Below, piece after piece: positions 3,279-25,086 of a stretch of DNA of 64,000 bases. The translations under genes and the position numbers were made by a program. The DNA lies in contig CP068257.2 of assembly GCA_009914755.4 (NCBI GenBank), positions 32,544,001 to 32,608,000 on the forward strand, given 5' to 3'. The first letter of the stretch is position 1. Each line of letters begins with the position of its first letter. The DNA is from the human T2T-CHM13v2.0 reference genome, Homo sapiens. The notes under the pieces are model-generated. The model did no database searches. It was not told the origin of the DNA and saw only the letters and a program-made list of their open reading frames with translations.

Positions 3279-5295
3279 TAAATTTTGTTTTTAAGAGAAG
3301 TTACTATTTATTCCTAATTAGATGGAGGGGAAAGTTTTTGAAGAGGAATCTTTGCTTTTTACAGGTATAATACTCTTGAATTTAGCTAATATGTTTGCAT
3401 AGAGACCCTCTTCTGCAAGATTAACTTCCACAATTCTTCCACTTCTTCTTCGAACCTTCAGCTTCTTCCTAATTTAACTCAAAACAATCTTTAAACCCTA
3501 GGTAAAGGTTTACATTTCCATGTCTTCTTATAACTTTTCACCAAAAAACCACATTTTACTGTTCTTACACACCTTGCTTGTAAATCTATTTCTAGTAGTT
3601 TCAATTAACTCCTAGCAATTTTTAACTTTAAGGTAAAACTTGGTAACTTGCTTTAATTGTGTGCTAAGTGCAGCCAAGGTTTGACTCCAGCATAATTAAG
3701 GGCATAGCTAATTCCATGTCCTCAGTCCCTACCAGTTGTGAAGCTGACAAGTCAAATAGTTCTCAAAACCCCAAAAGCAGTTTGTAACCTCAAAACAGTT
3801 AGCAAACCTTGCATCTGACCTGCATTTTACCAATAGTCTTTAGGGCTGTTTTTATTTCTTAATGATTAAAGTCACGTGAACTGAAAGGTACCACAGCTTT
3901 TAACTTCCCTTTAAAAAATATTAGATCCAAGTGCTTGTCTTTCTTTAGACTAAATTAGTTAGAACTCTTTTTCCAGGCATCACACACAGTACAGGCAAAA
4001 GAGAACCCAGTCGCTGGGTGGGAACCTTTAAGAGACAGGGCTAAGAAAACATGGAGGTATCAAATCTGAGAGGGCTGTTCCCCTCAGGCAGGGTTGCTAA
4101 ACAAAGCCTTGCCAAGCAATTACCAGCCATGCCCCCAGGGTGTAAAGCAAGATGGAAGCTTGCAACATAAACCATGCAGACAAGCAAAGCACACCAGATT
4201 GACCACAGCCCAAGACTAGCCCCACAAATCCTTTTTCACAATTAAAACTTTACAGAAAATACAAACAGTTGTAGTTGCAGGGAGCCTGGACTAGTAAAGT
4301 GTCTTCTAAAAGAAAAAAAAACTTTAAAGGTTAACTTTTTGACCAGGTAGATAAGGGGAAAGAAAAAAAAACAGTTTAAAAATGCCTGGGGAAGAACTTC
4401 TTATTCTTATGCAAGTGGTTCCTCCACCGGGAAGAGAAGTTTAAGCTTAATTACTGTCCAATAGAGTTAAACACCTTGACCATGGATGGAGAAGGCTACG
4501 GCAGCAGCATGTGGCTGGGAACCAGCCAGCCAGCTGTGCAGGACTCTTGGGCCATACTTCCCAGCCCTGGCAGGGCGGGGAGATGCTGCTCTGTGGTGGG
4601 TCCTGAAAAAGGAAGGAAAAGGCCATGAAAAGGCCCAGGAGTGATGGGAAAGAGGGGATGGGGGTGTGGAAAAGGCTTAGAAGCAGCAATGAGAGGTTTT
4701 GAGTCCCCGTTTCACTCACTGCTTCTCGAGCCCCATGTTGGGCGCCAAAAATGTTGCAGGACTTTTCTTTAGTTCAGCTAAAGGTGGGGTTCTTTGAAAA
4801 TTCAGGCTCGCAGACAATTTGAATGGTGAGTGAGACAGGATTTTATTGAGTGAAAAGGAAGCAAAGGGGGAAACAGGGACTCTTATTAGGCCAGGGTCCC
4901 TGCTAGAGTGTTTCTCCCCCACAGCTCAAATGCCAGGCTCCATGCAGGAAGAGGAGGGGCCAAGCTCAGGCTCTCCCTGCTGCAAACGTCTTGAACTTCC
5001 TGAGGCTGCACCTCAGTGGGGAGGCTAGTTGGAGTTTCTCCAGGGACCCCTTCCCACCTGGCTGTCTCATCATCAGGTGACCCCTCTTCTCATCCCAAAG
5101 CACTGAGCTTTTGTCTATAAATTACAAATTTTATCAGGAATTCCAGCAACATATTGAAACTAAAAATAAAAACAAACCATTGGGGGTATTTTTAAAACTT
5201 CAAATCAAGTAATCTATTTATACCAAAAATGTCATCATCATTATAATACTCATTTGTTTGTTATAGTTATTATTTTATCTACTGCATGATAACCT

Positions 5296-6434: not shown

Positions 6435-7425
6435 TGTAACACAATTCTTGTGTTTCATTCTCTTTCTCTGGTGGCTGGATTTTGGGAATTTCACCAGATT
6501 ATGCCCAAGTGGGATTCTCTTTTTTGCTTTTCAAATTATTATTATTATACTTGCTTGGTACTTATAGTTTACATTCTGGTCCCCAAATTGGTTTTTATTC
6601 AGTTAAGGAGCATTTTCTTCTATTTGTTTGTTAAGTTTGTTTCTTCTTATCTTTCCCTGCCTTTTTTTCAGGAATGCCTGATATTCAATACTCAATAGTC
6701 AATATTCTCACAGTAGCTGATATTCTCGAAGCTGTATTCCTGTCTCTTATATTTTTATTTATGATTTTCACTTCACTGAATTTTTGCTCCATGTTCTGAG
6801 ACAGTTTCTCTTTGATCATTCAGATCAGATTGTTTATGGGTACCATCAGGAGATGGGTTAAGGCTGAAGGATGGATGGAACTCTGCATTTTTCATGCTCA
6901 TTGTTCAGGGATGGTTTACATCTGGATGGCAACAGGATCCCAAATCCCTTGTTGGGGATGCTACTTTGGTAAGGGTGCAGCTTCATACTCTGAGTCTGAC
7001 CCCAGATGGCATTTCCAATCTGATGGATCCCAGGATGAATTTAGCTTCTAGAGGCAGTAGCAGTACGGACGGTTTTGAAGTTGAGTTTATCCTTTGACCC
7101 TCTTGGTTATTTGTTGGACTCAGTTCTCTCTGCTGCTTAAAGGACCCCCATTTGCTCATCACCCTGCAGCCTGTTCTGGTTATTGTCACTGTTTGTCTCT
7201 GGGTCAACTTCCTCACAAGCCTGTGAGTTCCATCCACCTTTGCACCTGTTTTAGTCCACTCAGGCTGCCATAACAGGATACCACACACAGACTGGGGGGC
7301 TTAAACAACAGACATTTATTTTCTCACAGTCCTGGGCACTGACAGTCCAGATCAAGGTGTTGGCAGGTTTGGTTTCTCCTGAGGCCTCTCTCCCTGGCTT
7401 GCAGATGGCTGCTTTCTTATTTATT

Positions 7426-7910
<485 letters not shown>

Positions 7911-8211
7911 TAAAACACCAATCAGATTGGATTAGGGCCCACCATAACGACCTCATTTAACCATAATTGCCTTTTTAGAGACATTGTCCCCAAATATAGT
8001 CACATTCTTAGGTACCAGGGATAAGGGCTTCAACATAATGAATTTTGGGGAGACACAATTCAGTCTATAACACACTCCTAGAGCTTAATGTAGGCCTGGC
8101 TTATAGTAGGTGCCCAGTAAATGTTGAGGGCCTGATTGAAGCTTTCCCAAATGTATTCTCTTTCCCCATTTTGATTTTCAAGCAAATTGTGATGCCTAGG
8201 ATGGCATCACA

Positions 8212-11867: not shown

Positions 11868-14477
11868 TTTCTCAAATTTGGAGAAAAACAGAAACTTACA
11901 GAGTCAAGAATCCCAGGAAATCTCAAATAGAATAAACCCAAAGAAATCCATGCCCAAACACATTCTTATTAACTGCTGCAAACTAAAGAAAACATATTTC
12001 CAGAAGCCAGAGAAAAACAGCACATTACTTATAGGGCAACATAATTCAAATAGCAACAGATTTTACAGAAGGAAATAGAACATTTTTTAAGTGCTAGAAG
12101 AAAAGAACTGTCAAACTACAATTCTATATTCAGTAAAAATATCCTTCAGGAATGAAGATAAAATAAAGACATTCCCAGGTGAAGAAAAATGAAGACTTCG
12201 TTGTCACCACACTATTGTTACAGGAAGTTCTTCAGGCAGATGGGAAATGACACCAGAAGAAGATATGAAGAGCAACAAAAATGACAGATAACTGGGCAAA
12301 CATAATAGACTGTTCTTCTTCTCTTGAGTTCTTTAAAATATATTTGATGGTAGAAAGCAAAAATTATAACATCGTCTAGTGGGGTTTTCAATGTATGTTG
12401 ATATAACAAATAAGACAACCACAACATAAAGGAGGATGGGTAAAGAAACCCATATATGGTGGTAATATATCACTTGAAGTGGTAAAATATACACTGACTG
12501 TAAAAAGTTAAGAATATATATTTTAATCCCTAGAGCAACTACTTAGAAATTACACAAAGGGATAGTCAACAAAAATGCAATAGGTAAAATAGATAACTAA
12601 CAAATGTTTAACCAAAAAGAAAGCAAACAAAGGGAAAACATAGAAACTGAAAATACAGAGACAAACAGTAAACAAACAATAAAATGATAGGCTTAAATAA
12701 AAACATCAGTAATTACATTAAATGTAAATGGATCAAACATACTAATTAAAAGATAGATTTTTAGAATGGATTTCAAAAAATGACTCAATTATATACTGTC
12801 TATAAGTATATAATTAATACAAGTGTTTCAGTTGTACTCACTTCAAGTATAATGACATAAGTGGGCTAAAAGTAAAGCAATATATATTCAAAAGATGTAT
12901 ATTATTAATGAGAATGAAGGTAGAGTGTCTATAGTAATATCAGACAAAGTGGACTTCAGAGCAAAGAAAATTACCAGGGATAAAAAGGGGCAATACCTAA
13001 TACATTTCATCAAGAGGACACAACAATCCTAAATCTGTATGTATCAAACAGCAAAGCTTGAAGGTACATGAAGGAAAAACTCACAGAACTGAGATAAGAA
13101 ATACACAAATTCATAATTATAGTTGGAAACTTCAACATTCCTCTCTCAGTGATCAATGGAACTTAGTAAACAGAAAGTCAGCAAGTGTATAGTATAGAAA
13201 ATGGAACTAAATGATAAACAATTGTTTCTAACTGACATAGAATACTCCACTCAGTAACAGCAGAATACACATTTTTCTCAATTTCACATGGAACTTTCAC
13301 CAAGATAGACCATATCTGGGGATATAAAACAAATTTGTCACACATTTAAAGAATCAAAATCATACAAAGTATGAAAAACAGAATGATAAGAAAATTTACA
13401 AACCCTTAGAAATTAAACAACACACTTGTACATAATCTGTAGGTCAAAGAGGAAGTCTCAGGGAAGTTAGAAAATATTTTGAACTGAATGAATATAAAAA
13501 TATATCAAAATTTGTGGGATGCAGTTAAAGCAGTGGTTAGATGGAAATTTCATCATTACGATGAATTTGTATTAGAAAAGAGAAGAGTATCAAACCAGTA
13601 ATCTAAGCTGCTTCCACAAGAAATTAGAAAAAGAAGAGCAAAATAAACTCAAAATAAGCAAAGGAAGGAAGTAATAAAAATAAGTACATAAATTTAAAAA
13701 ATGAAAACAATTTCAAAAACAATACAGAAAAATAATGAGGAGTTCAATAAACCTCTGGTGAGACTGGCAGAGGGAAAGATAGAACATGAATTACTGATAT
13801 CAGGAATGAAAAAAGGGTTATCACTACACACCCTGCTCATAAATTTGACCATTTAGATAAAACGGATGAATTCTGCAAAAGACACAAATTACCAAAATTC
13901 ACCCAAGATGACATGTAGATAACTTGAATAGCACTATTAGTATTTTAAAAATTGAGCTTGTATTTTAAAACCTTCTATAAAAGGATTCTTCAGGCCAAGA
14001 TTCTAGCACACACCATATAGCATATGCTACCAAATATTTAAACAAGAAATATGATAAATTCTACCAAATATTTTCTAGACATAAAATGAACTGTACACAA
14101 TCTCTTCCAGAAAATAGAAGAGGAGGGAGCACTTCTCAACTCATTTTATAAGGCCAACATTACCCTGGTACTGGAACCAGACAGATGGTACAAAAAGTAC
14201 AAAACACTATCCCTCATGAACATATATGCAAAAATTCTCAACAAAATATTAGCAAATATCCATTAATACATAAGTATACAAAGAGATAGTCAATAATATT
14301 GACTATTAGGGAAATGCCAGCTAAAACTCTGATGAGATATAACCTATGGAGTGAGACACACCTATTGAATGGCAAAAATAAAAAATACTGACAATACTAA
14401 GTGCTCACAATCATGCAAAGCAACTGGATCTCTCATACACTGCCAATGGGAATGCAAAATTGCACAGCTACTCTAGG

Positions 14478-14670
14478 ATCGTCCTGCTTCAGCCTTCTGA
14501 GTAGCTAGGACTACAGGTGGGCACCACCATGCTTGGCTAATTTTTAGTATTTTTTGGAGAGACAGGGTCCAGGTTGCCTGGGCTGGTCTTGAACTCCTGG
14601 CCTCAAGCTGTCCTCCTGCCTCAGTCTTCCAAAGTGCTGGGATTACAGGTGTGAGCTATTGTGGCTGGCC
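14478..14670 (-). mobile_element. Partial Alu (left-monomer region), reverse orientation, inside the L1
   Basis: 'cctgcttcagccttctgagtagctaggactacaggtgggcaccaccatgcttggctaatttttagtattttttggagagacagggtccaggttgcctgggctggtcttgaactcctggcctcaagc...gattacaggtgtgagctattgtggctggcc'. Confidence 0.85.
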
Positions 14671-17600
14671 CTACTTTGCAGTTTCTTATAAAGCTACACA
14701 CACAATTGACATATGACTCAGCAATCCCAAGTGAACTGAAAACTTGTATTCATGCAAAGACCTATGCATGAATGTTTATAGCAGCTGTATTCATTATCAC
14801 TAATAAGAGAAAACAACCCAATGTCTTTCAGTGGGTCAATGGGTAAATAAACTGTGGTGCGTTTCTACAATGGAATACTACTCAATTTAGCAATAAAAAG
14901 GAATGAACTATTGACACACCCAACAACTTGGATGAATCTCAAAGACATTATGCTGAGTAAAAGGAGCCAATCTCAAAAGTTCTACATACTGAATGATATA
15001 CTTTACTCTCAAAAAGGTGAAACACGTGACAGAGAAGAAATCAATGATTTCTAGGAGTGAGAGTTTAGTGAAGACAATGCTGTAATTTCTTCCCATCTAA
15101 ATTCCTTAGACCTCTGCGTTCTAATTATGAACCACTTGGAGGGAGGGTCTATGTGTCCCAAGTAAAAAGCCTGCTCTATGCTATATGCCTTGTAGGAATT
15201 GTATCTTTTTTGTTCATTCTTCTATGTCCCATGCCTAGCAGAGTAAACTGGCATAGATTGGGCACTCAGTTATTCGGTGAACAAAATAAATGAATGAACA
15301 AACTATGAAATGGTTTCAACATCCAACAATGCATTGAGAGCCTCTAAAAACTTTAAGAAAAATGGACACATTTTGTTTAACCGAACACGTGATCATTGTT
15401 GATAATTGTGGGCTGCACTCTCTCTAATGACTCTCCTAACTGTACGCTTCTGTTTGGGCTACTGACCAGGTTTTGTCTTGTGTGAGTCTACCTGCACCAT
15501 TTCTGAGCATTTCTCCTGCTTCTGTCCTGTAGAAGCAAAACAATTAGATACACGAATCCCTTCTCCAGAATTATGCAGCTACTGTCAACCAAAAATGGTG
15601 GATAACTGCCAATGACGTACATGTTGGAATTAGTGTTTGAGATTTATCAGACACTAACATATGACAGGACTTGGGCGGTGCTGAGATAATAATGAGGCCT
15701 TGCAAATGGGCATCACTCAGCATTGCAGGGAGTCCAGGGTGAGGGGCAGGACTGGACTAGCTCAACAGAGTACTTGGCATGAGGGGGCAACATGGGAAAT
15801 GTATAGGGACTCGAAAACTATAGTTGGTATTAGAGCCAGAGGCCCTTTGTCTCATCCCTCACCAGGAGTAGGGGCCCTTAGAGTACTGTCACCAGAAGGT
15901 TCTGGGAAAGTTGTAGAGACCGAATGAGTTGCTACACTACTGACCCTGCCATGTGCCAGCAATCTCCTTGATGGTCTCTGGGCAGTCTGTTTCACAGACC
16001 TGAAAAAAAGATTGAGAAAGCCTATGATATCTTATTTCATCAAGTCCGGTCTACAATGGCTTGATAGTAAGACCAGCCATTATTTTATATACCAATAGGA
16101 GAGGAAAAACACTGCCAACACACTGTGACAGATGCCTTTAATGACAGTCCTGAATGACATATGAATCAATGACATCAGATTCCTTTTAAGTTAATCTTCA
16201 TCTCTTCTAGAGATTTGGCAATGAAACAAGTAACTCGGCAATAGAAAGTAACACAGCTTGTCCGACTGGTGGGTATCTTCCTTTGCGAGGTTTCTGGTGC
16301 ACTTGATTGTTTCTTTGCAAGAAAATATGGACTCCTGATCATTCTTTCTGTGATAAATGTCGTTCACTAATACCACCTTTGCATCCTACTGCTTGGTTTC
16401 TGTACCTTTCTGACTACAAAATAGCTTGTTATTTCAGTGCTGAATCGTAGTGAAATTTCTTTGGGGAGATTCCTACACAGTAGTTAAACTCTGAGGTTAA
16501 GCTAACAAATGCACAGATCTCAATCAAAGTGATAACAATGTGAACAGCTACAGCTGGGTGGATGCACATGGCCGATGGCTTTTGAAAGATACTCCTGATT
16601 AAGATGTATCTGGATCTCAGCAATGTTAGCCTGTGAAAAACTGTGCCTCTTAAAATCTGTGGAATACAGTAATTCTGTCCAATTCAGTAATTTGGGAGGG
16701 AGAGTTCTTCTGCACTTATGACATGTTTCGTGAACATCCTTTGTCTGCTGGGGAATGTTCTAGGGCTTCAGTGGGAAACAGGCTGACTCCCCTGCCCACA
16801 TGGAGCTCACACTGAGTAAGGAGAACAGACAATAAGGGAATAAACAGAACAATGTTCATGTTATTTTAAGTGCAAGGAAGGAAATAAACAGGAGGCTGAG
16901 ATGGAGCCTCACAGTGGGACGGGTACAGGATGTACATGAGCATTTGTGATGAGCCTTCTGATTTCCAACTAAGTCAACACTTGGATTTTTGTCTCTAAGA
17001 GTCACTGGCAGCCTGCAGGGCGATCACCTGTCCCTAGGTTTGCCCAGAACTGAGGGGTTTCACGGGATATGAGCCTTGAACTCCTATAATGGGCAGACCC
17101 AAGCATACTAGTACAGTTCGTCCCCCTATGGAGATTCTAACTCAAGTTTCCTTGTAGTTTAATATTTTTATTACTATTTCCATGTCTAATGAAGTTTGAT
17201 ACTTAACCATCCACTGTGGCTTTTATTATCTTTCACTCCCATCTCTCTTATTTTCATAAAAAGAGATTAATTCTATAGTACAACTAAAGTCTTATAATTC
17301 TTAAATGCAGTCACTCAACACCACCAGTTAAACACCTACTTAAAGTCCTTCGGGGCCTCAATGATAGGTCAGGGTATCTCTCAGGGGTAAGAAATGTCTA
17401 TCGACAGCTAGAAGATCAGGTAGTGGCACAACCAAGCGTCCACCAAAGCCTCCAGCTGGGAGAAGGTGGGTGGTTGCTAAGCAGGGATGAGGGCAGGGCG
17501 AGCTGCTTTGTTTTTCTAATTTTATTTTGTTTTGGATGAACAATTCCAACCAAAGGCTTTGAAGAAGAGCAATTTTCTTTGCCTTTGAAATGAGTTAAAG

Positions 17601-18029
17601 GCAAAACAACTCCATCCTTTCATGTTAGGAATCATTTTGGTAAAGTAGTGCGGCTTTCTGTTTTTTTTTTTAACTAAAAGACAAGCTGAACTCTGGATTG
17701 CAAATGCTTTCATGGCTATTAGAAGTATAGTTTGTTTGTTTTTTCTCTTTAAAACAATGAAATGCAAATTCTTGGCTTTCTCTTCAAGCAAGGAGCGGCG
17801 AGGGGAAGCCACTCTGGAGGCTGGATGCAGATGTGTTGTTGTCAGTGACACTACAATACTTACTAGTTTTTGCAAAGTCCCAGTGAACTTCATGTTCGTT
17901 CCCTGCCTTTTTAGTCTCAAGGTTGATGTGTAACAATGCCTGTGCCCACTGTAATATTCCAAAACTACCATGTCCTTTCCATTCTTTCCCCCGACCCCAT
18001 TGTGTTTCATTTTCTTTTTCTTTTTTTAA

Positions 18030-18190
18030 AATTTAATTTAACTGAATTTTAAGTACAGGGCTTGCAGATTTGTTACATAGGTAAATGTGTGTCATGGTGG
18101 TTTATTGCACCTATCAACCCATCACCTAAGTATTAAGCCCCACATGCATTAGCTATTTATCCTAATGCTCTCCCTCCCCCCACCCCGCTG
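18030..18190 (-). mobile_element. Short L1 3'-terminal fragment (L1PA/L1PB-like), reverse orientation, possibly with TSD
   Basis: 'ttttaagtacagggcttgcagatttgttacataggtaaatgtgtgtcatggtggtttattgcacctatcaacccatcacctaagtattaagccc...cctaatgctctccctccc' is the reverse complement of the L1 3' UTR end. It is flanked by similar 25-mers: 'cccccgaccccattgtgtttcattttc' at 17988 and 'ccccaccccgctgtgtttcattttc' at 18177. Confidence 0.7.
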
Positions 18191-18910
18191 TGTTTCATTT
18201 TCCTCTCATATCTCGTGACCACATAATTCCTTCTTTAATGACAAATTGTATTGAATGAGGTGGCCAGTCTTAGAAGTGCTGTAATCTGAAAGAAAAAAAT
18301 GAAACTTTCCACTTCATCACTCTGGTATATTATTATTTTTAAAAAGATGCAAGTTGTCATATGAAAATGGAGGCATTAATTCCTTAACCTATTCCAAAAC
18401 TTTAGCTCATATTTGCCAAGAAAACAGAATGCGAATGGGAAGCCGTGTTTCTGCTTGAGGCAGTAGGAAGCAGGAGACCAAAAAGTCGTCTTAATGTTAA
18501 GCAAAACTTTGAATCAGCATTTAAATTAGATATGCTTTAACGGCTAATGTTATTTGAAAGCTGAATAGCCAATGTCAAAAATAGATTTCCCTTTCTTTCC
18601 AAAGTGCAGACGGGGTCCAGAAAGGGGCAAAAATAACCACATGCCTTTCTTGGACTCCTGACTCTTACCACCCAAAGGGTTTTCTTGTGTAGCAACCAAC
18701 AATTCCTTGGATGGAAACACTGGATAGGCTAGTCATTATTTTGAGATTGAAGGGACTGCAGATTCTTGGCAGACCTCTGTTGTTTTTCTAGAGTTGTAGG
18801 CAAGTAGTTGGACAAAAAGCAAGAAGCTGATCGATGTTGCTGGCTTTGGATTCTTTGTGAACAAATGAGACAAGGTGAGTAGCTGCCCTGCTCAACTCCC
18901 TCTTCGTTTT

Positions 18911-18940
18911 GGTGTGGGGCGGGGGTGGGGGTGGGGAGGG
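18911..18940 (+). other. G-rich tract with five G-runs (potential G-quadruplex)
   Basis: 'ggtgtggggcgggggtgggggtggggaggg'. It lies immediately downstream of a consensus 5' splice-donor-like site 'caag|gtgagtagc' at 18871–18883. Confidence 0.6.
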
Positions 18941-21900
18941 AAAGGTTCTGATGACTGCAATCCTGGTGTCGGATCTTGGTCTGTTGGAAAACAACGGGCT
19001 CGCCGGCCCCTGTAGGAAGACCTAGGCAATGTCTGCATGCTGCCTGTGCAGCCCATGGAGGGGTTAGAAATAGTAGGATTGCTTGTAGAGAGAGAACAAT
19101 CACTCAATTGTCAGATTTTTTTTTTTCACTTTTCATCCACACGCTGGGTGGCTTTGTAGCACAGTCGGAGATACTGTGTTGAGGAGCCTTTGCTCATGGC
19201 AATGTTTCCTCTGTTCACTTTCTGCTGCTTCTGCATTGGAAAATTCCGTCCTTTAACACTGGGATTATATGTCACCGTTGCTGAAATCATAGACAGAGTC
19301 CACTTAATTTGGTGCGAGCATGAGAAATAGCCAGAGAATGGGAGAAGCATAGCATTCCCTTGTATAAAGAGAGGATTGAATAAGGTCAGTGAACCAGAGA
19401 CAGCAGGTCACAAACCCTCAGAGGGTCATGAAAATGTTCCCTGGTTTCCTGCCTTTGGGAGCAAAACGGATGCCTGTTTAAATTTTTTAAAAAATTATTG
19501 AAGATTAGCCATGATACTTGTTTGAGCTGGGTGAGATATTTGAGGGCTCATTATACTAGTTTCTGTACTTTTGCACATTTTTGAAAATTTCAAATGATAA
19601 AACATTTTTTACGAAATATTTAAATACCTCCCTGCTTCATCTCAGAACGATTCCAGAGCCCCTGAGTGGGTCCCATGTACGCATGCGTGGCAGTAGGGGC
19701 TGCTCAACTGAGCATGCTCGTGATTTGGCCTCAGTCAATTTCACTGTGTGCTGAGCCCCCAACGATGCTAACCCCTGTGCGGTTTCAAATGGCCTTTATT
19801 CTTAGCCATATGTTCTTTGGCCCATATCCTAAATGGATCATTTGTTAAAGGCTAGAAACATTAGCAACACAGATGTTGAAATTCATGTTAATAATTCAGT
19901 AAATTGCCTCATGATAATCTTCACTTTATCTGAAGATGGCCTTTGTCTCGTCAAAGTCTGCCCCTGGACCTCAGAAACCCAGTGTTACAGAAAGAAAAGA
20001 CAGGGACAGTTATGTCTAATTTTGGTTTTCATTTATAGAGAACAAATGGTTGTAAAGAAGTGATTACAAATAGCAGCTAGCTGATATTTTAAGCACAAAA
20101 TATAAGAATTTCAGACATGAGGTCATGAAAGCAATTTTTGATGCCCCAATTCCTGGTTAATTTCAATTTTTATTTTAATCTGAGCACCCAACAGCTGACA
20201 CAAAATAACTCTTTTATTGACTTCCTCCTTGTATCTGGTGGCCCTGAAATGGTTATCATAAAATTTATTGTGTAGTCACTGTTTCCTAGCTCTTGTGGAC
20301 ACAGAAATGGTAGAAGTTTCTAGAAATGAGGCATGTAGGTACATTGTAAGGTTTATGGGTTTTAGCCACACACTCTTGAAACTTGGTGTTAATCTTCACA
20401 TTTGTTTAAAATTTTAAATATATTGATATTAAAGATTGTAGCTAACATGAAATTTATGTTGACAAAATAGAAAATATTTTGACTATCAGTTTCTACTTTT
20501 GCATACACACTATAGTAGATATCTTCTGTGTGTATCTCTCACCTTCTGACCCATCTTCCACACCAGCCATTGCTGGAGCAGCCAGCTTTGCGCAGGTGTA
20601 ACCAGAAGGTGCCTTGTTTCAGCTGCACTGCGTCTCTCCATTTCTGCCCTGGGCCTCTCTGACACAGTGTCCTGGTATTGAGGCTTGTGCAACCTGGAAG
20701 TGTAAGGGAGTCAACATTCTATGAGGAAATTCTTGGCCAAAAGGGGGTGGGAGTCTATAAATTAGTACTCCCTTTTTTCTTCCCCTAGGCTGCAAATTCA
20801 GAGGATCCTCCCAGAAGATAAGATGGAGCAGGTCACCACCTTCTTCCCTGCTTCACACCCTCAGGCCCCGACTCTTGTCTGCTGAGATCACTCTCCAAAC
20901 CAATCTTCCCTTACAAAGCCCTTGTTGCAGGCTATGCTTTCTGAGGGGAACCCAGGCCAAGACACTAAAATGACACACCAACATGAAGACATGAACACAA
21001 TTGCAAAGGGATTGGTTGGATTGCATATCTCTGTGAATGGGACTCAAGAGAAGTTTGGGAAATGCTGGACCAGATGACCCTTGCAATCATGGTGCACAGA
21101 ATTAAAACCGTCAAGTTCCCCATCCATCTCTGAGATGGATGAGAATCTGAGTCTTCCACAAGATGCCCAAGACTTGTTAAACCCGTGGAATGTCTTTGGG
21201 TATGTGTGACATCAACAAGAAGCAGCAGACAAAACAAAATATTTTCACAAACATTCAGAAATCCCTAAATCTTGTGAGTTGTCGTATCATTTGTAGATAT
21301 AATTATAAAATGGCACATGATGCTGACCTATTCCAAGGCAATTGTTCATCTCATGGTAGGGTGTAATCTCTGCCTGCAGATTAAGGCAGAAGAGACCAAG
21401 GAGGGCTGTTTACTCCTTCATGATCCATCCCAGGGGAGGGTGGGTTTTGGACCAGTTAGGTTATGTGGCTGGCTGCTGAGGATTCTGAACATCTAGTTAC
21501 CTCCCTGTACCTCTGTCCCATATACTCTAGGCCAGTGGCTCTTCCCTGGATTGGGCCATCTTTTTCTGAAGGCAAATTTTCCACTAGGAGGAAGGTTAGA
21601 AATGCCAGTTCTTGAGTTGCACCCCAGATCTTTGGCAGTCTGTTGCGATAGATCTTCCAGGCGACTCTGATGCTGGCTGAAGTTTGAGAACCATTGCCCT
21701 TGGCCTGTTCCTGCTCATCCTGGCTTGCAGGCTTTGGAGGCCTTCGCTGTTGATTGATTTACACTCCTCTCCACAGAATGGGCTCAGGAAACAAAAGATT
21801 ACTTGATTAGCTGGGAGGTGAGAGAAAAGGGGCTGGAACTGTGTAGGCAGCCACGCAGCTTACAAATAGATTATGTTCTGGACTTTGGAAGTCAGCTGTT

Positions 21901-22899
21901 TGGAATAGAAGCTGTTTTCCTAGGAATGGTAGATAGCTTTTTATGCCAGCACATAAAGGCATATTTAATTCCAAACTTGGCTGAAATACTGCTGCGTCAC
22001 AATGAAAATGAGCAGATCCCAGTGCTCCTGGAGTATTAGTACCTAATCAAAGCAGAACAGAACAAGAAATGAAACACGGAGATGGTATTTTATGTATGTT
22101 AATATTGCTGATCAAAGAAAAAGGTTGATTTGGAGACGAATTAAGAGGTAAATTGGGATATGTCAAGATTCATAAGGAGTTTCTGGCCTTTCTCTAGAAT
22201 ATGATGATACTCATTCATTTAGGCAGACTTTCCTTAACTGTGGTTCTGGATTGTTACCTTTCTTTTTTCTGAAGGCAAATTTCCCACTAGGAGGGAGGTA
22301 AAGAATTCTGAGACCAACTGGCATGGGTTGAAAAGGAGAACAGAAAGAGTAATGGAATCAGAGAGAATGCAGGTGTATTTATTAATTAATACGAGCCTCA
22401 ACGGAGACAAAACTAACATGAGTTGTGAGCAATGAGAGGTGGATGGGCATAGACCGAGGTCAGGATTCTCCTCTGTACTTGGCAAGACAGGAAAGACAGC
22501 AGACCTATGTGGAGCACGTGAGCTGGGAGCTGCTGTTCTGGAAACCTTCCCTCCCACTGTATTTGCCTGCCCTTGTCCCTTACACAGTTCCATTTCATGT
22601 CACCCGACTTCTTTCCTTTCCCTGGTTACTGATAGGGCAAAAGAAGATGAGCTGGACCAACTCCCTTTTTCTTCCTAGAGATTTGAACTAAGAAACAACC
22701 AGATACATTTCAGTCCGTGATGGGAAGAGGTTTGCGGCTGGCTGTGAGCACTTCACACATTCACAAATCACGCACTTCTAGTTGGCTTTCTTGTGATGGC
22801 GAAAATACTTTCTTTTTGGTTTCATGATGCATTTATTAACCATTCTATTTTTGTATCATACAAATGATCAGAGCTGACAGTTGAATGGCTGGGTTGGGA

Positions 22900-23880
22900 G
22901 AAGTGTGGTAGCCCTAATGGAATTAATTAATTGAATAATATTGCCTGACAAATGGCTCCATTATACCAAAGAGGGCTTGAGACTTAATTACTGATGTCAT
23001 TTATCTCTCTATTTGCACCCCAATAATAAGTGACTCATTTCTCATTAATATTGGGTCATCTTCCAAAAGGAAGAAAAGAGGCCAAAATATCAGGCGGGTG
23101 GGTGGGGGGTGAAGCAATGTCTTTGTTCCCTATCTCATTATTTTGATAAATCATAACAGACTCCCGTTAATTAGGTGGGCAGGCTTAACTGGCTGACTCC
23201 TGTCCAACAATTACCTCAGAAAGGAGCACCACTGGGAACACGTCCTTCCCTTGGGACGACATGAAAGGAAGTCTCTAACAAAAAAGGGGATCGTTCCCTT
23301 GGCCACGCTGGGGGCATCACAGTTGTCAAGACACATTTCTAGACGTAAGGGCTGGAGCTGTCTCGGGGACATCGCCTGTGCATGACGGTGATGTCTGTGG
23401 GCCTGATGCTGCCTTCCTAATCCAGGGTTGAGCTAATGGTTCTCAGTGCCTTTGAGTCCCCCTGGGAAATGAGAACCTAATTAAGCAGGGGAACAGGTGT
23501 AAAGAGAACCTGATTTGATCTGGCCACATTAATTGCTGAGATTGGGCTTGCATTTAGCTGGAAACAGTGAATTAACTACAGCCGGAATACAGCTAATCCC
23601 TTGGTTTCGCTGCGACTGTGTATAAAACACACTGGACCTGCTGGGGAACACAAACAAAGAGGGATTTGCAGTGAAGGTAAAACCGCATCCTTGCATGGGA
23701 AGGGCTGAGAAACGAGCTTAGCCACAGAGGGTGGCCATGTGGCCCAGACTGGGCGGCTCATTTTCCCTACAAAATTACCAATAGCACTCTCTTTTATTCT
23801 CAAAAAATGTTCCAGTTTGGGCAATAAATTAAATGGTTACTTTATTTCAATGAGAATTTTAAGTTGGTTTAAAATATTTT
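22900..23880. promoter_or_regulatory. Candidate conserved non-coding element or enhancer cluster, TAAT-rich and retaining CpGs
   Basis: Dense homeodomain-type motifs: 'aattaattaattgaataatattg', 'gacttaattactgatgtcatttatc', 'ctcattaatattgggtcat', 'cccgttaattaggtggg', 'cctaattaagcagg', 'cacattaattgctgag', 'gaattaactacagccgg' and 'gcaataaattaaatgg'. There are also more than 15 retained CpGs ('gacgacatg', 'gatcgttcc', 'agacgtaag', 'tttcgctgcgactg' and others) in a region with no Alu. Confidence 0.45.
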
Positions 23881-24772
23881 TTTCTTTACCGGAGGAGTGG
23901 TATTATAGGTTGAGGAGTTACCGGTTGAATTTTGTCCCCCTCAACAAAGATGTTGAAGTCCTGACCCCCAGTATCTGTGAACGTGACCTTATTTGGAATT
24001 GGGGTCTTTGCAGATGATCCAGTTAAGGTGAGGCCATTAAGGGTGAGCCCTCATCCAGGATGACTGGTGGCTTTTAAAAGGGGGGAATTTTGGACACAGT
24101 CACAGGGAGGGCACCATATGAAGGTGAAGGCAGAGTCTGCGGCAATGTTTCTATAAGCCAAGGAACCTGAGGATTGCCAGTGACCCCCAGAAGTTAAGGG
24201 AGGGGCCTGGAACAGATTCTCCCCCAGAGCCCTCAGAACAAACCCTGCCAACACCTTGATCTCAGACTTCTGGCCTCCAGAACTGTTCAGCAATAAACGT
24301 CTGTTGTTTAAGCCACCCTGCCTTTGGCACTTTGTCACGGCGGCCCCAGCAGACTAACTCACGTGGGCACTAGTCTCGAAGCATCTGATAAGGCTCTAAT
24401 GACTCATGGTTTGTACGGTTCACAGAACTGAGCCGTCTTGATGGCGAAGGCTGGTCGCAGGGTTAGGGAGCAGAGCTGATTAGAGGACCAGTACCAATTT
24501 CCCACCTCCTCGGTGCCAAGCTCTGGGAAGAGGGTGACAGAGATGGCCCTGGTTCCTGGCCTCAAGGGGCCAGCAGTCCGGTGGGCAGGCAGCCTGTGCA
24601 GGTGACCTTGTACTTCATTAGCTAAACACGAGTATGTATCTATGTACACACACCTGGAAGGGAGGGAAGCTCAATATAGGTGGGGGGCAGGCCTCCCAAG
24701 CTGGGCTGAAAAGCATCAGCCTTCCCAGGATGGGACATCTCAGCTGAGACCTGAGAAGAAAGGGCTACCTGG

Positions 24773-25086
24773 ATTTTATTTTATTTTGTTTTCTTATTTT
24801 TGAGACAGGATCTCATTCTGTTGCCCAGAGGCTAGAGTGCAATGATGCAGTCACGACTCACTGTAGCCTTGACCTCCGTAGGCTCAAGCGATCCTCCTGT
24901 CTCAGCCTCCCAGGTAGCTGGAACCACAGGCACACACCACTGTGCCCAGCTAATTTTTGTATTTTTTGTAGAGACGGGGTTTCGCCATGTTGCCCAGGCT
25001 GGTCTCAAACTCCTGGGCTCAAGGGATCCACCCACCTCAGCCTCCCAAAAGTGCTGAGATTATAGGTGCAAGGCACAACGCTGGGC
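24773..25086 (-). mobile_element. Alu SINE, reverse orientation, with a 15-bp TSD
   Basis: Alu reverse-complement body '...gagacaggatctcattctgttgcccagaggctagagtgcaatg...'. The direct repeat 'gctacctggatttta' occurs on both flanks, at 24767 and 25087. Confidence 0.9.

What the first reader, a model, noticed from the sequence alone, without database searches (positions are those of the whole stretch)
22900..23880. Homeobox-site-dense element with at least 9 TAAT cores, palindromic AATTAATTAATT, and many retained CpGs
Within about 1 kb there are at least eight TAAT-core motifs of the kind quoted in the feature entry. Interleaved with them are CpG-containing GC-rich cores ('ggcgggtgggtggggggtg', 'tttcgctgcgactgtgtataaaacacactgg', 'gtctcggggacatcgcctgtgcatgacggtgatg'). 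The arrangement resembles known limb and neural enhancers bound by HOX, PBX, MEIS, DLX or LHX factors. It is the single most enhancer-like segment in the window.
Basis: partly seen in the sequence, partly recalled or inferred. Interest (0 to 1): 0.62.

Follow-up and report, generated by a model that had tools for sequence, protein, structure and literature searches.

The report
Conserved homeodomain-site-rich regulatory DNA element
This is a roughly 900-base stretch of non-coding primate DNA, kept across placental mammals and unusually dense in binding sites for homeodomain proteins, so it is most likely an ordinary developmental enhancer of a well-known kind.

Summary
The motif observation is real. 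The region holds 26 TAAT/ATTA cores against 9.5±2.8 in dinucleotide shuffles (0 of 2000 reach it), the highest density in the 64 kb. It also holds 7 TAATTR hexamers against about 1 expected. The window is Alu-bearing primate DNA with no detectable coding exon.

I recovered orthologous DNA from mammalian host contigs in metagenome assemblies: two ruminants and three sequences from two other placental lineages. The element (22830-23745) is non-coding and single-copy. It diverges at about half the neutral rate, and about a third in its cores. All orthologs keep the TAAT excess, and 4 of 7 TAATTR sites are identical in all six sequences.

Two parts of the finding fail. The CpGs are not retained: none is shared by all species. 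The G-rich "core" is primate-only. PBX-HOX and MEIS sites are at chance level, so the HOX/PBX/MEIS limb reading is unsupported.

Best reading: a distal cis-regulatory module read by TAATTA-class homeodomain factors, one of at least four conserved blocks in a 17-kb stretch. A conserved TATA-like box followed by a splice-donor-like site keeps an alternative-promoter reading alive. Activity, target gene and conservation beyond placentals could not be tested. TAATTA-rich conserved non-coding elements are a known class, so interest is low.

The parts
22830..23745 (.). Whole conserved non-coding element (about 916 bp)
   Evidence: Human-ruminant identity is 0.81 here against 0.71 in the flank 20150-22800 and 0.70 in an old repeat. 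62% of columns are invariant in six sequences. There is no codon periodicity, and it is single-copy in the window.
22906..23235 (.). Core block A, the most conserved and most TAAT-dense part (48 cores per kb)
   Evidence: Human-ruminant p-distance is 0.124 against 0.28-0.30 neutral. 30-bp windows are 0.70-0.97 four-way invariant except at the G-run. It holds 16 cores and 5 TAATTR sites.
22915..22933 (.). TAATGGAATTAATTAATTG: P3-like TAAT-N3-ATTA followed by the palindrome AATTAATTAATT (22921-22932)
   Evidence: Identical in human, both ruminants and lineage C. Destroyed in lineage B (TAACAGACTGGATTGATKG). It is therefore ancestral but dispensable in one lineage.
22933..22952 (.). Conserved block GAATAATATTGCCTGACAAA
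   Evidence: 20-bp run invariant in the four-sequence alignment. In the six-sequence alignment, ruminant B (L007) and B1 (L002) each carry one change.
22977..23015 (.). TTGAGACTTAATTAC..ATGTCATTTATCTCTCTATTTG, containing a conserved TTAATTAC site (22984-22991) and a TGTCA core
   Evidence: Invariant runs of 15 and 22 bp. The TAATTA at 22985 is identical in all six sequences.
23051..23094 (.). Longest near-invariant block, TTGGGTCATCTTCCAAAAGGAAGAAAAGAGGCCAAAATATCAGG. It has no homeodomain core and contains the palindrome TCTTCCAAAAGGAAGA
   Evidence: 44 bp identical in human, L001 and L002. With more sequences it gives runs of 29 and 14 bp.
23093..23111 (.). G-run ggcgggtgggtggggggtg: a primate-lineage novelty, not part of the conserved core
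   Evidence: All five other sequences have an A/G-rich unrelated stretch here. The 30-bp invariant fraction drops to 0.40.
23166..23174 (.). GTTAATTAG, a conserved TAATTA / TTAATTAG site
   Evidence: The TAATTA core (23168-23173) is identical in all six sequences; lineage C has GCTAATTAG, so the first T of TTAATTAG differs there. TTAATTAS motifs: 3 observed against 0.06 expected, 0 of 500 shuffles.
23206..23220 (.). AACAATTACCTCAGA, a conserved CAATTA site overlapping AACAAT
   Evidence: 15-bp invariant run. CAATTA is identical in all six sequences.
23476..23640 (.). Core block B
   Evidence: Human-ruminant p-distance is 0.152. 30-bp four-way invariant fraction is 0.80-0.90.
23528..23556 (.). 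ATTAATTGCTGAGATTGGGCTTGCATTTA: conserved TAATTG directly abutting a TGCTGA (MAF-half-site-like) sequence
   Evidence: 29-bp invariant run. TAATTG is identical in all six sequences. TGCTGAS is conserved but not enriched.
23570..23599 (.). GAATTAACTA...GAATACAGCTAATCC: conserved ATTAAC and a conserved K50-type TAATCC site
   Evidence: The cores at 23571 and 23594 are kept in all six sequences, with a 15-bp invariant run at 23585-23599. TAATCY is not enriched: 2 observed against 0.98 expected.
23616..23638 (+). CTGTGTATAAAACA(C/G)ACTGGAC: TATA-like box (TATAAAA at 23621-23627)
   Evidence: Identical in all six sequences except one position. One such motif is not more than chance gives: 1 observed against 0.38 expected.
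23648..23682 (+). Possible transcription start and short first exon ending at a splice-donor-like AAG|GTA (exon end 23676). Inferred only
   Evidence: GAACACAAACAAAGAGGGAT.TG.AG...AGGT is largely conserved and conservation declines downstream. The donor lacks the +5 G in most species. No transcript evidence was available.

Best explanation
The segment 22830-23745 is a placental-conserved, non-coding cis-regulatory module. Most probably it is a distal, tissue-specific enhancer whose main input is one or more homeodomain factors of the TAATTA/TAATTG-binding class (Q50 homeodomains such as LHX, DLX, NKX6, and paired-like or related factors).

Inferred mechanism: a homotypic cluster of 7 high-affinity TAATTR sites plus about 18 further TAAT cores sits in two conserved cores (22906-23235 and 23476-23640). 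It would recruit these factors cooperatively or additively. Conserved non-homeodomain blocks would supply co-factor input. These include the 44-bp block at 23051-23094, a CAGGTG E-box at 23494, TGTCA cores, and TGCTGA abutting TAATTG. The bound module would then act on a promoter elsewhere in the same regulatory domain. The only CpG-island promoter candidate in view lies 16 kb downstream at 39950-40350.

Shown here: motif excess, non-coding status, conservation above neutral, persistence of the motif excess in all orthologs, and membership of a cluster of conserved non-coding blocks. Inferred: factor binding, enhancer activity, tissue and target gene.
For: Motif excess:
- 26 TAAT/ATTA cores against 9.5±2.8 in shuffles (0 of 2000). 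This is the highest density in the window although G+C is 44%.
- Of 26 motif classes tested, TAATTR (7 against 0.92) and TTAATTAS (3 against 0.06) exceed all 500 shuffles. The single P3 site (3 of 500) and the GTTAAT half-site (6 of 500) are also uncommon in shuffles; the other classes are at chance.

Conservation:
- Orthologous DNA came from two ruminant species, two species of a second lineage and one of a third.
- Synteny with the ruminant runs over window 12.3-28.9 kb.
- The element peaks at 0.895 identity per 200 bp, against a median of 0.70 and a 95th percentile of 0.845.
- Jukes-Cantor distance is 0.215 for the element, 0.135 for core A and 0.170 for core B. It is 0.356 in the flank and 0.388 in an old shared repeat.

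Motifs in the orthologs:
- Each ortholog independently shows the TAAT excess: 18-26 cores against 7-9 expected, 0 of 500 shuffles in each.
- 4 of 7 TAATTR hexamers are identical in all six sequences, against 16% for any hexamer (P=0.015). The other three are lost only in lineage B.

Other readings excluded:
- Not coding: mismatches are spread evenly over the three codon phases (16/11/14 and 12/17/20), indels are not multiples of three, and there is no Pfam match.
- Not a structured RNA: no Rfam match, and folding z-scores are -0.5 to -1.1.

Context:
- Three more conserved non-coding blocks lie within 17 kb, and a 10-kb stretch is free of Alu elements.
- TAATTA enrichment is a published property of vertebrate conserved non-coding elements that act as long-range developmental enhancers (PMC5728398, PMC6730951).
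Against: - No functional data of any kind (chromatin, transcription-factor occupancy, reporter) could be consulted.
- TAAT cores are not clearly better conserved than other A/T-rich words inside the element. 48% of cores are invariant against 37.5% of other A/T-only 4-mers. For TAATTR, 4 of 7 are invariant against 33% of AT-rich hexamers (P=0.16). The constraint therefore cannot be pinned on the homeodomain sites specifically.
- The longest invariant block (23051-23094) contains no homeodomain core.
- One lineage has lost 3 of the 7 TAATTR sites, including the palindrome.
- Only four independent placental lineages were sampled, and conservation outside placentals is unknown.
- The genomic locus and the target gene were not identified.
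- An invariant TATA-like box with a donor-like site downstream fits a promoter as well.
Confidence: 0.6

Rival explanations
1. The element is a tissue-specific TATA-type promoter, with its proximal regulatory region, for an unannotated transcript on the + strand. That transcript could be a long non-coding RNA or a distal alternative first exon of a downstream gene. The homeodomain-site cluster would be the upstream promoter region. Transcription would start about 30 bp after TATAAAA (23621), near 23650. A short non-coding exon would end at AAG|GTA (23676) and be spliced to exons downstream.
For: - CTGTGTATAAAACA(C/G)ACTGGAC is identical in six sequences except for one base.
- The 50 bp after it are well conserved, and a GT donor-like site is kept in five of the six sequences (B2 has GGC).
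- Conservation decays from about 23700-23745 onward. This gives the asymmetric profile typical of a promoter plus first exon: about 800 bp conserved upstream and little downstream.
- A conserved K50-type TAATCC and a TAATTG lie 25-95 bp upstream of the TATA box, as in some homeodomain-driven tissue-specific promoters (background knowledge).
Against: - One TATAWAW in 916 bp is not more than chance gives: 0.38 expected, and 137 of 500 shuffles have at least one.
- There is no clear initiator at the expected distance.
- The donor is weak, with no +5 G in human or the ruminants.
- There is no CpG island: observed/expected is 0.34.
- No downstream conserved exon was found. The 25.9-26.2 kb block shows no coding periodicity and has an 8-bp indel.
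- No transcript data were available.
- The strongest conservation (core A) lies 400-700 bp upstream of the TATA box, farther than most core-promoter constraint.
Confidence: 0.17
2. The sequence is not functional in its own right. The lower divergence reflects local variation in mutation rate or sampling noise among a few species. The TAAT richness is a compositional leftover, for example from an ancient A/T-rich mobile element inherited by all placentals.
For: - Only four independent lineages were compared.
- The whole 12-29 kb stretch aligns between human and ruminant, so the region as a whole is slowly evolving.
- TAAT cores are not significantly better kept than other A/T-rich words.
- An inherited motif-rich sequence would automatically show the same motif excess in every ortholog.
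Against: - Divergence in the cores is about one third of that in an adjacent old repeat only 150 bp away and in the 2.6-kb flank (JC 0.135 against 0.388 and 0.356). That is too sharp a boundary for regional mutation-rate variation.
- There are invariant runs of 20-29 bp across four sequences from three lineages, where three-way invariance is 0.5-0.6 in the 2.6-kb flank.
- After roughly 0.36 substitutions per site between lineages, an unconstrained cluster of 6-bp sites would mostly have decayed. Yet 4 of 7 are identical in six sequences, and three of the four lineages keep all 7.
- No second copy exists in the window.
Confidence: 0.1
3. The element is constrained for an architectural role rather than as a classical enhancer. 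Candidates are a scaffold/matrix attachment or SATB-type base-unpairing region, an insulator or tethering element, or a silencer bound by homeodomain repressors.
For: A/T-rich TAAT-type clusters are also bound by architectural AT-hook and SATB-type proteins (background knowledge). Nothing in the sequence fixes the sign of the regulatory output, so a silencer cannot be excluded.
Against: - G+C is 44-46%, not the 25-30% typical of attachment regions.
- Conserved blocks include many non-A/T sequences.
- A weak Pfam hint to a SATB domain elsewhere in the window was chance: tblastn with SATB1 found nothing. It says nothing about binding here.
Confidence: 0.08

Closest known systems
Vertebrate conserved non-coding elements (CNEs) clustered in regulatory blocks around developmental genes, which are enriched in the TAATTA hexamer (Chiang et al., as cited in PMC5728398; PMC6730951)
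   Same: It is non-coding and conserved well above the neutral rate. It is A/T-rich inside, with strong TAATTA/TAATTG enrichment. It lies among several other conserved non-coding blocks in a repeat-poor stretch.
   Different: Conservation was shown only among placental mammals, at about 80% overall. The classical CNE sets are defined by human-chicken, human-fish or near-100% identity. The neighbouring conserved blocks are not TAAT-rich. The associated developmental gene was not identified.
Homeodomain-driven forebrain/neural enhancers, such as the TAATTA-containing enhancers of the Lhx2 locus (PMC3100342) and DLX-bound regulatory elements (PMC6750766, PMC10327028)
   Same: A homotypic cluster of TAATTA/TAATTG sites, several of them perfectly conserved, lies within a few hundred base pairs of conserved non-coding DNA.
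   Different: No occupancy or reporter data exist for this element. The tissue is unknown, and the sequence did not match any sequence string in the searchable literature. These papers surfaced in the literature search but were not read in detail.
HOX-PBX-MEIS responsive enhancers
   Same: TAAT cores are present. There is one ATAAATCA (TGATTTAT on the minus strand) at 23146 and several TGTCA cores.
   Different: The defining bipartite PBX-HOX site and the MEIS TGACAG site are at chance frequency and are not conserved in all sequences.
Ultraconserved elements (at least 200 bp identical in human, mouse and rat)
   Same: It is non-coding, developmental-enhancer-like and TAAT-rich.
   Different: The longest run invariant across the four-sequence alignment is 29 bp, and the longest identical in three species is 44 bp. 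It is far from ultraconserved.

Membership tests
Conserved non-coding element (CNE) of a developmental regulatory block | Does not encode protein | tested here: met
   Substitutions are spread evenly over the three codon phases (16/11/14 and 12/17/20). Indels are not multiples of three. The longest stop-free stretches are 62-86 aa with no Pfam match.
Conserved non-coding element (CNE) of a developmental regulatory block | Conserved significantly above the local neutral rate across mammalian orders | tested here: met
   JC distance is 0.215 (cores 0.135 and 0.170) against 0.356 in the flank and 0.388 in a shared old repeat. The element is in the top 5% of 200-bp windows over 17 kb.
Conserved non-coding element (CNE) of a developmental regulatory block | Deep conservation (human-chicken or human-fish, or at least 95-100% over 50 bp or more between distant vertebrates) | not testable with these tools
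   No vertebrate genome collection was available. Two metagenome scans gave nothing orthologous: none for the first pattern and one chance hit for the second. Three protein searches and one exhaustive profile search found only placental host contigs.
Conserved non-coding element (CNE) of a developmental regulatory block | Occurs in a cluster with other CNEs | tested here: met
   Further non-coding conserved blocks lie at 18.55-18.9, 19.05-19.5, 19.75-20.15 and 25.85-26.25 kb.
Conserved non-coding element (CNE) of a developmental regulatory block | TAATTA / A+T enrichment inside the element | tested here: met
   4 TAATTA against 0.31 expected and 7 TAATTR against about 1, with 0 of 2000 shuffles. 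The same holds in the orthologs.
Conserved non-coding element (CNE) of a developmental regulatory block | Lies near a developmental transcription-factor gene | not testable with these tools
   The locus was not identifiable. No coding exon was detected in the window. Only a small CpG island at 39950-40350 was seen.
Transcriptional enhancer | Activates a reporter or target gene at a distance; carries open chromatin, H3K27ac and transcription-factor occupancy | not testable with these tools
   No epigenomic or reporter data are accessible here.
HOX-PBX-MEIS responsive enhancer | Conserved bipartite PBX-HOX site (TGATNNAT) with a nearby MEIS/PREP site (TGACAG) | tested here: not met
   TGATNNAT: 2 observed against 0.68 expected (80 of 500 shuffles reach it), none conserved in all sequences. 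TGACAG: 1 against 0.54, not conserved.
Ultraconserved element | At least 200 bp of 100% identity across distant mammals | tested here: not met
   The longest invariant run is 29 bp in the four-sequence alignment of three lineages, and 44 bp in three species.
CpG island | At least 200 bp with G+C above 50% and CpG observed/expected above 0.6 | tested here: not met
   G+C is 0.44 and observed/expected is 0.34. No CpG is conserved in all six sequences.
TATA-type core promoter with first exon | Conserved TATA box | tested here: met
   TGTGTATAAAACA is invariant in six sequences, although a single TATAWAW is within chance expectation.
TATA-type core promoter with first exon | Transcription start about 25-35 bp downstream, with initiator and transcript evidence | not testable with these tools
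   No clear YYANWYY initiator is seen by eye at about 23650 (sequence). No CAGE or RNA data were available.
TATA-type core promoter with first exon | Functional splice donor ending the first exon | tested here: inconclusive
   AAG|GTAAAA in human, AAG|GTACAG or GTCCAG in the ruminants, GTACGC in B1, GGCACG (no GT) in B2 and GAG|GTAAAA in lineage C. GT is kept in five of six sequences, but the consensus match is weak.
Structured non-coding RNA | Match to a known family, or folding energy beyond shuffled controls | tested here: not met
   Rfam finds only Alu/SRP-derived hits elsewhere in the window. Folding z-scores are -0.66, -0.54 and -1.12.
Interspersed repeat / mobile-element copy | Multiple similar copies | tested here: inconclusive
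   There is no second copy in the 64 kb. No repeat library was available to test for ancient exapted families.

The most novel reading that the evidence does not exclude
The element is not a plain enhancer. It would be a conserved, homeodomain-driven TATA promoter with a roughly 27-nt first exon for an unannotated tissue-specific transcript. That transcript could be a non-coding RNA or a distal alternative 5' exon of the gene whose CpG-island promoter lies 16 kb downstream. In addition, the primate lineage would have remodelled the element by inserting a G-run at 23093-23111 and by several gains of CpG.
Probability: 0.12. Interest if true: 0.4.

Novelty: new member of a known kind. Interest (0 to 1): 0.2.

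Why it matters
If the reading is right, this is one more homeodomain-responsive regulatory module in a cluster of conserved non-coding blocks. That is useful for whoever studies the still unidentified neighbouring gene and for interpreting non-coding variants there. It does not change any concept: TAATTA-rich conserved non-coding elements acting as developmental enhancers have been described for more than fifteen years, and genome-wide conservation and regulatory-element catalogues almost certainly already list this segment. The analysis mainly separates what is solid (motif excess, placental conservation) from what is not (retained CpGs, GC-rich cores, the HOX/PBX/MEIS assignment).

Tried and rejected
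- Protein-coding exon. Rejected: no ORF conservation, no codon periodicity, and Pfam scans of 446 stop-free segments of at least 50 aa across the window gave only chance-level hits. A CUTL/SATB hit at E=0.0065 was not backed by tblastn with SATB1 written from memory.
- Structured RNA, miRNA or lncRNA family. Rejected.
- CpG island or retained CpGs. Rejected.
- Repeat copy. No paralogue in the window.
- Identifying the locus:
  - a literature full-text search for six 19-22-mers from the element found 0 papers;
  - a search for the sample accessions found 0 papers;
  - the Rfam e-value scan returned almost only Alu/SRP-derived hits, plus a few weak chance matches, and nothing locus-specific.
- More orthologues:
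  - an exact 24-mer scan of JGI metagenome contigs found 0 hits;
  - a second scan with a 21-base pattern gave one chance hit with no further similarity;
  - a 1903-aa six-frame query with X in place of stops found nothing, apparently because long X-laden queries dilute the word-index candidate list;
  - an exhaustive profile search of 1.84 billion representatives found no additional orthologous ORFs.
- The look-up of encoding contigs with a window ORF: not on record.
- Passing DNA references with internal stops to the Pfam tool is not accepted.
- Human-lineage acceleration was considered. Lineage-specific substitutions are 33 in human, 40 in the ruminants, 35 in lineage B and 69 in lineage C, so there is no acceleration in human.
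Full report
**What the window is.** The 64-kb window is mammalian, and specifically primate. It carries about 25 Alu copies, seen as Metazoa_SRP-like and Alu-derived miRNA-family hits in Rfam and as typical Alu translations among the ORFs. G+C is about 43% and CpG is depleted, with observed/expected 0.23. No protein-coding exon was detectable. None of the 62 ORFs of at least 90 aa looks real. Pfam scans of 446 stop-free segments of at least 50 aa outside Alus gave only three hits at E 0.004-0.009, which is the number expected by chance. One of these, to a SATB domain, was not backed by tblastn with SATB1. The genomic locus could not be named with the tools available.

**Checking the observation.** Every quoted string is present. 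The interval 22900-23880 holds 13 TAAT and 13 ATTA, 26 cores in all. It holds 4 TAATTA, 7 TAATTR/YAATTA, and the self-complementary AATTAATTAATT at 22921-22932.
- In 2000 dinucleotide-preserving shuffles the expectation is 9.5±2.8 cores, 0.31 TAATTA and 1.15 TAATTR. No shuffle reaches the observed value for any of them.
- Only 0.24% of 981-bp windows across the 64 kb reach 26 cores, and all of those overlap this element. The runners-up (24-25 cores) are 27-29% G+C, against 44% here.
- The CpG part of the finding does not hold. There are 16 CpGs with observed/expected 0.34, and 13.6% of windows have as many.

**Getting orthologous DNA.** No vertebrate genome collection is on offer, so I used an indirect route. 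A chimeric query made of stop-free translations of the element hit two "proteins" in the large protein collection. These turned out to be gene-caller artefacts: ORFs called with TGA read as tryptophan on mammalian host contigs inside metagenome assemblies. Their contigs, their cluster mates, and two further hits from a profile search gave the following sequences.
- One ruminant species: L001, L004 and L006, which are 99.5% identical to one another. It is recognisable by what I take, from memory, to be a ruminant Bov-tA/BOV-A2-type SINE at the contig end.
- A second ruminant about 9% diverged from the first: L007 and L008.
- Two related species of another lineage, 96.5% identical to each other: L002 and L005, called lineage B.
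- One sequence of a faster-evolving lineage that is closer to human: L009, called lineage C.

The 17-kb ruminant contig is collinear with window 12.3-28.9 kb. Two exact-pattern scans of the metagenome contig collection gave nothing orthologous: no match for the first pattern and one chance match for the second. An exhaustive profile search of 1.84 billion representative proteins added no further orthologues.

**Conservation.**
- Over the 17 kb, human-ruminant identity in 200-bp windows has a median of 0.70 and a 95th percentile of 0.845. The element peaks at 0.895 (22900-23099).
- Jukes-Cantor distances between human and ruminant are given below.

| Region | JC distance |
|---|---|
| Old shared interspersed repeat, immediately downstream (23880-24450) | 0.388 |
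| 2.6-kb upstream flank | 0.356 |
| Whole element (22830-23745) | 0.215 |
| Core A (22906-23235) | 0.135 |
| Core B (23476-23640) | 0.170 |

- So the element evolves at about 0.55-0.6 of the neutral rate, and its cores at about 0.35-0.45.
- 62% of columns are identical in all six sequences. Invariant runs of 12-29 bp are listed. A 44-bp block at 23051-23094 is identical in three species.
- Substitutions show no three-base periodicity and indels are not multiples of three, so the element is non-coding.
- It has no second copy in the window, no Rfam match, and no unusual folding energy (z -0.5 to -1.1).
- It is not unique in being conserved. Blocks at 18.55-18.9, 19.05-19.5, 19.75-20.15 and 25.85-26.25 kb are as conserved or nearly so, and are also non-coding. 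Those blocks are not TAAT-rich: 4-15 cores per kb against 27 per kb for the element and 48 per kb for core A.

**Which parts of the finding are conserved.**
- Every ortholog shows the TAAT excess on its own: 18-26 cores against 7-9 expected, with 0 of 500 shuffles reaching it in each.
- Of 25 human cores in the element, 12 are identical in all six sequences. Of the 7 TAATTR hexamers, 4 are (22985, 23168, 23208, 23530). The other three, including the palindrome, are lost only in lineage B.
- Against the 16% of all hexamers that are invariant, 4 of 7 is unusual (P=0.015). Against A/T-rich hexamers (33% invariant) it is not (P=0.16). The constraint therefore cannot be attributed specifically to the homeodomain cores.
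- Of 26 motif classes tested, TAATTR and the TTAATTAS subtype exceed all 500 shuffles. The single P3 site (3 of 500) and the GTTAAT half-site (6 of 500) are also uncommon in shuffles.
- PBX-HOX, MEIS, SOX, FOX, E-box, MAF, GATA, AP-1, K50 TAATCY and TATA motifs are at chance frequency, although some individual sites are conserved.
- The "GC-rich, CpG-containing cores" are the least conserved parts. The G-run 23093-23111 is primate-only. None of the 15 CpGs in the element is shared by all six sequences. Several are human-lineage changes away from a state shared by all five other sequences.
- The human lineage is not accelerated. Lineage-specific substitutions number 33 in human, 40 in the ruminants, 35 in lineage B and 69 in lineage C.

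**Interpretation.** The best-supported reading is a placental-conserved cis-regulatory module whose principal input is a homotypic cluster of TAATTA/TAATTG-type homeodomain sites, acting with co-factors bound to the conserved non-homeodomain blocks. The motif excess, the conservation and the non-coding status are shown. Binding, activity, tissue and target are inferred. This is the well-described class of TAATTA-enriched conserved non-coding elements that cluster around developmental regulators and often act as long-range enhancers (PMC5728398, PMC6730951).

The main rival is a tissue-specific TATA promoter. CTGTGTATAAAACA(C/G)ACTGGAC is invariant in six sequences apart from one base. It is followed by a conserved stretch of about 50 bp and a donor-like AAG|GTA at 23676, after which conservation decays. 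Against this, a single TATA-like word is within chance, the donor is weak, there is no CpG island, and no transcript data were available. Neutral or mutation-rate explanations and a purely architectural role are less likely, for the reasons given under the rival explanations.

**Verdict.** The thing itself is an ordinary member of a known class. Interest is low unless mapping to the reference genome shows deep vertebrate conservation, a disease-linked locus, or an unannotated promoter.

Noticed in passing
window 18550-18900, 19050-19500, 19750-20150, 25850-26250: Four further non-coding blocks are conserved between human and ruminant (up to 0.91 identity per 200 bp). They show no codon periodicity and are not TAAT-rich. 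Together with the studied element they form a cluster of conserved non-coding blocks.
   Followed up: partly
window 39950-40350 and 40468-40545: A small CpG island (G+C 0.66, CpG observed/expected 0.82, CCAAT box at about 40143) is followed by a (TG)n(AG)n microsatellite. It is a likely promoter 16 kb downstream of the element. No ORF there has a Pfam match, and no orthologous sequence was available.
   Followed up: partly
window about 14700-24800: A 10-kb stretch has no Alu, in a window that otherwise carries about 25 Alu copies. This is consistent with selection against insertions in a regulatory block.
   Followed up: no
window 23880-24450 and 7264-8062 (minus strand): Two copies of an old interspersed repeat. 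The first is shared with ruminants at about 68-70% identity and served as a neutral yardstick. The family was not named because no repeat library was available.
   Followed up: partly
window 23093-23111; CpGs at 23165, 23241, 23257, 23364: A primate-lineage G-run replaces an A/G-rich stretch present in all five other mammals. Several CpGs are human-lineage gains inside an otherwise conserved element. The overall human-lineage substitution count is not elevated.
   Followed up: yes
L001, L002, L004-L009 (proteins P0001-P0007): The public protein collection contains 'proteins' of 185-379 aa that are artefacts: ORFs called with TGA read as Trp on mammalian host DNA inside metagenome assemblies. 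P0007 (71 aa) is a spurious standard-code ORF of the same kind. Parts of P0001 and P0006 look like translated ruminant SINE. They are useful as an accidental source of orthologous mammalian DNA.
   Followed up: yes
window 13200-15300, 17900-18200 and 24400-25200: These stretches are absent from the ruminant contig. They are lineage-specific insertions or deletions. The last contains an Alu at 24800-25086 and the first an A/T-rich repeat plus an Alu at 14488-14669.
   Followed up: no
window 3300-4600: A second, weaker concentration of TAATTR sites (6-7 in about 1.2 kb, G+C 0.38-0.42). No orthologous sequence was available to test conservation.
   Followed up: no
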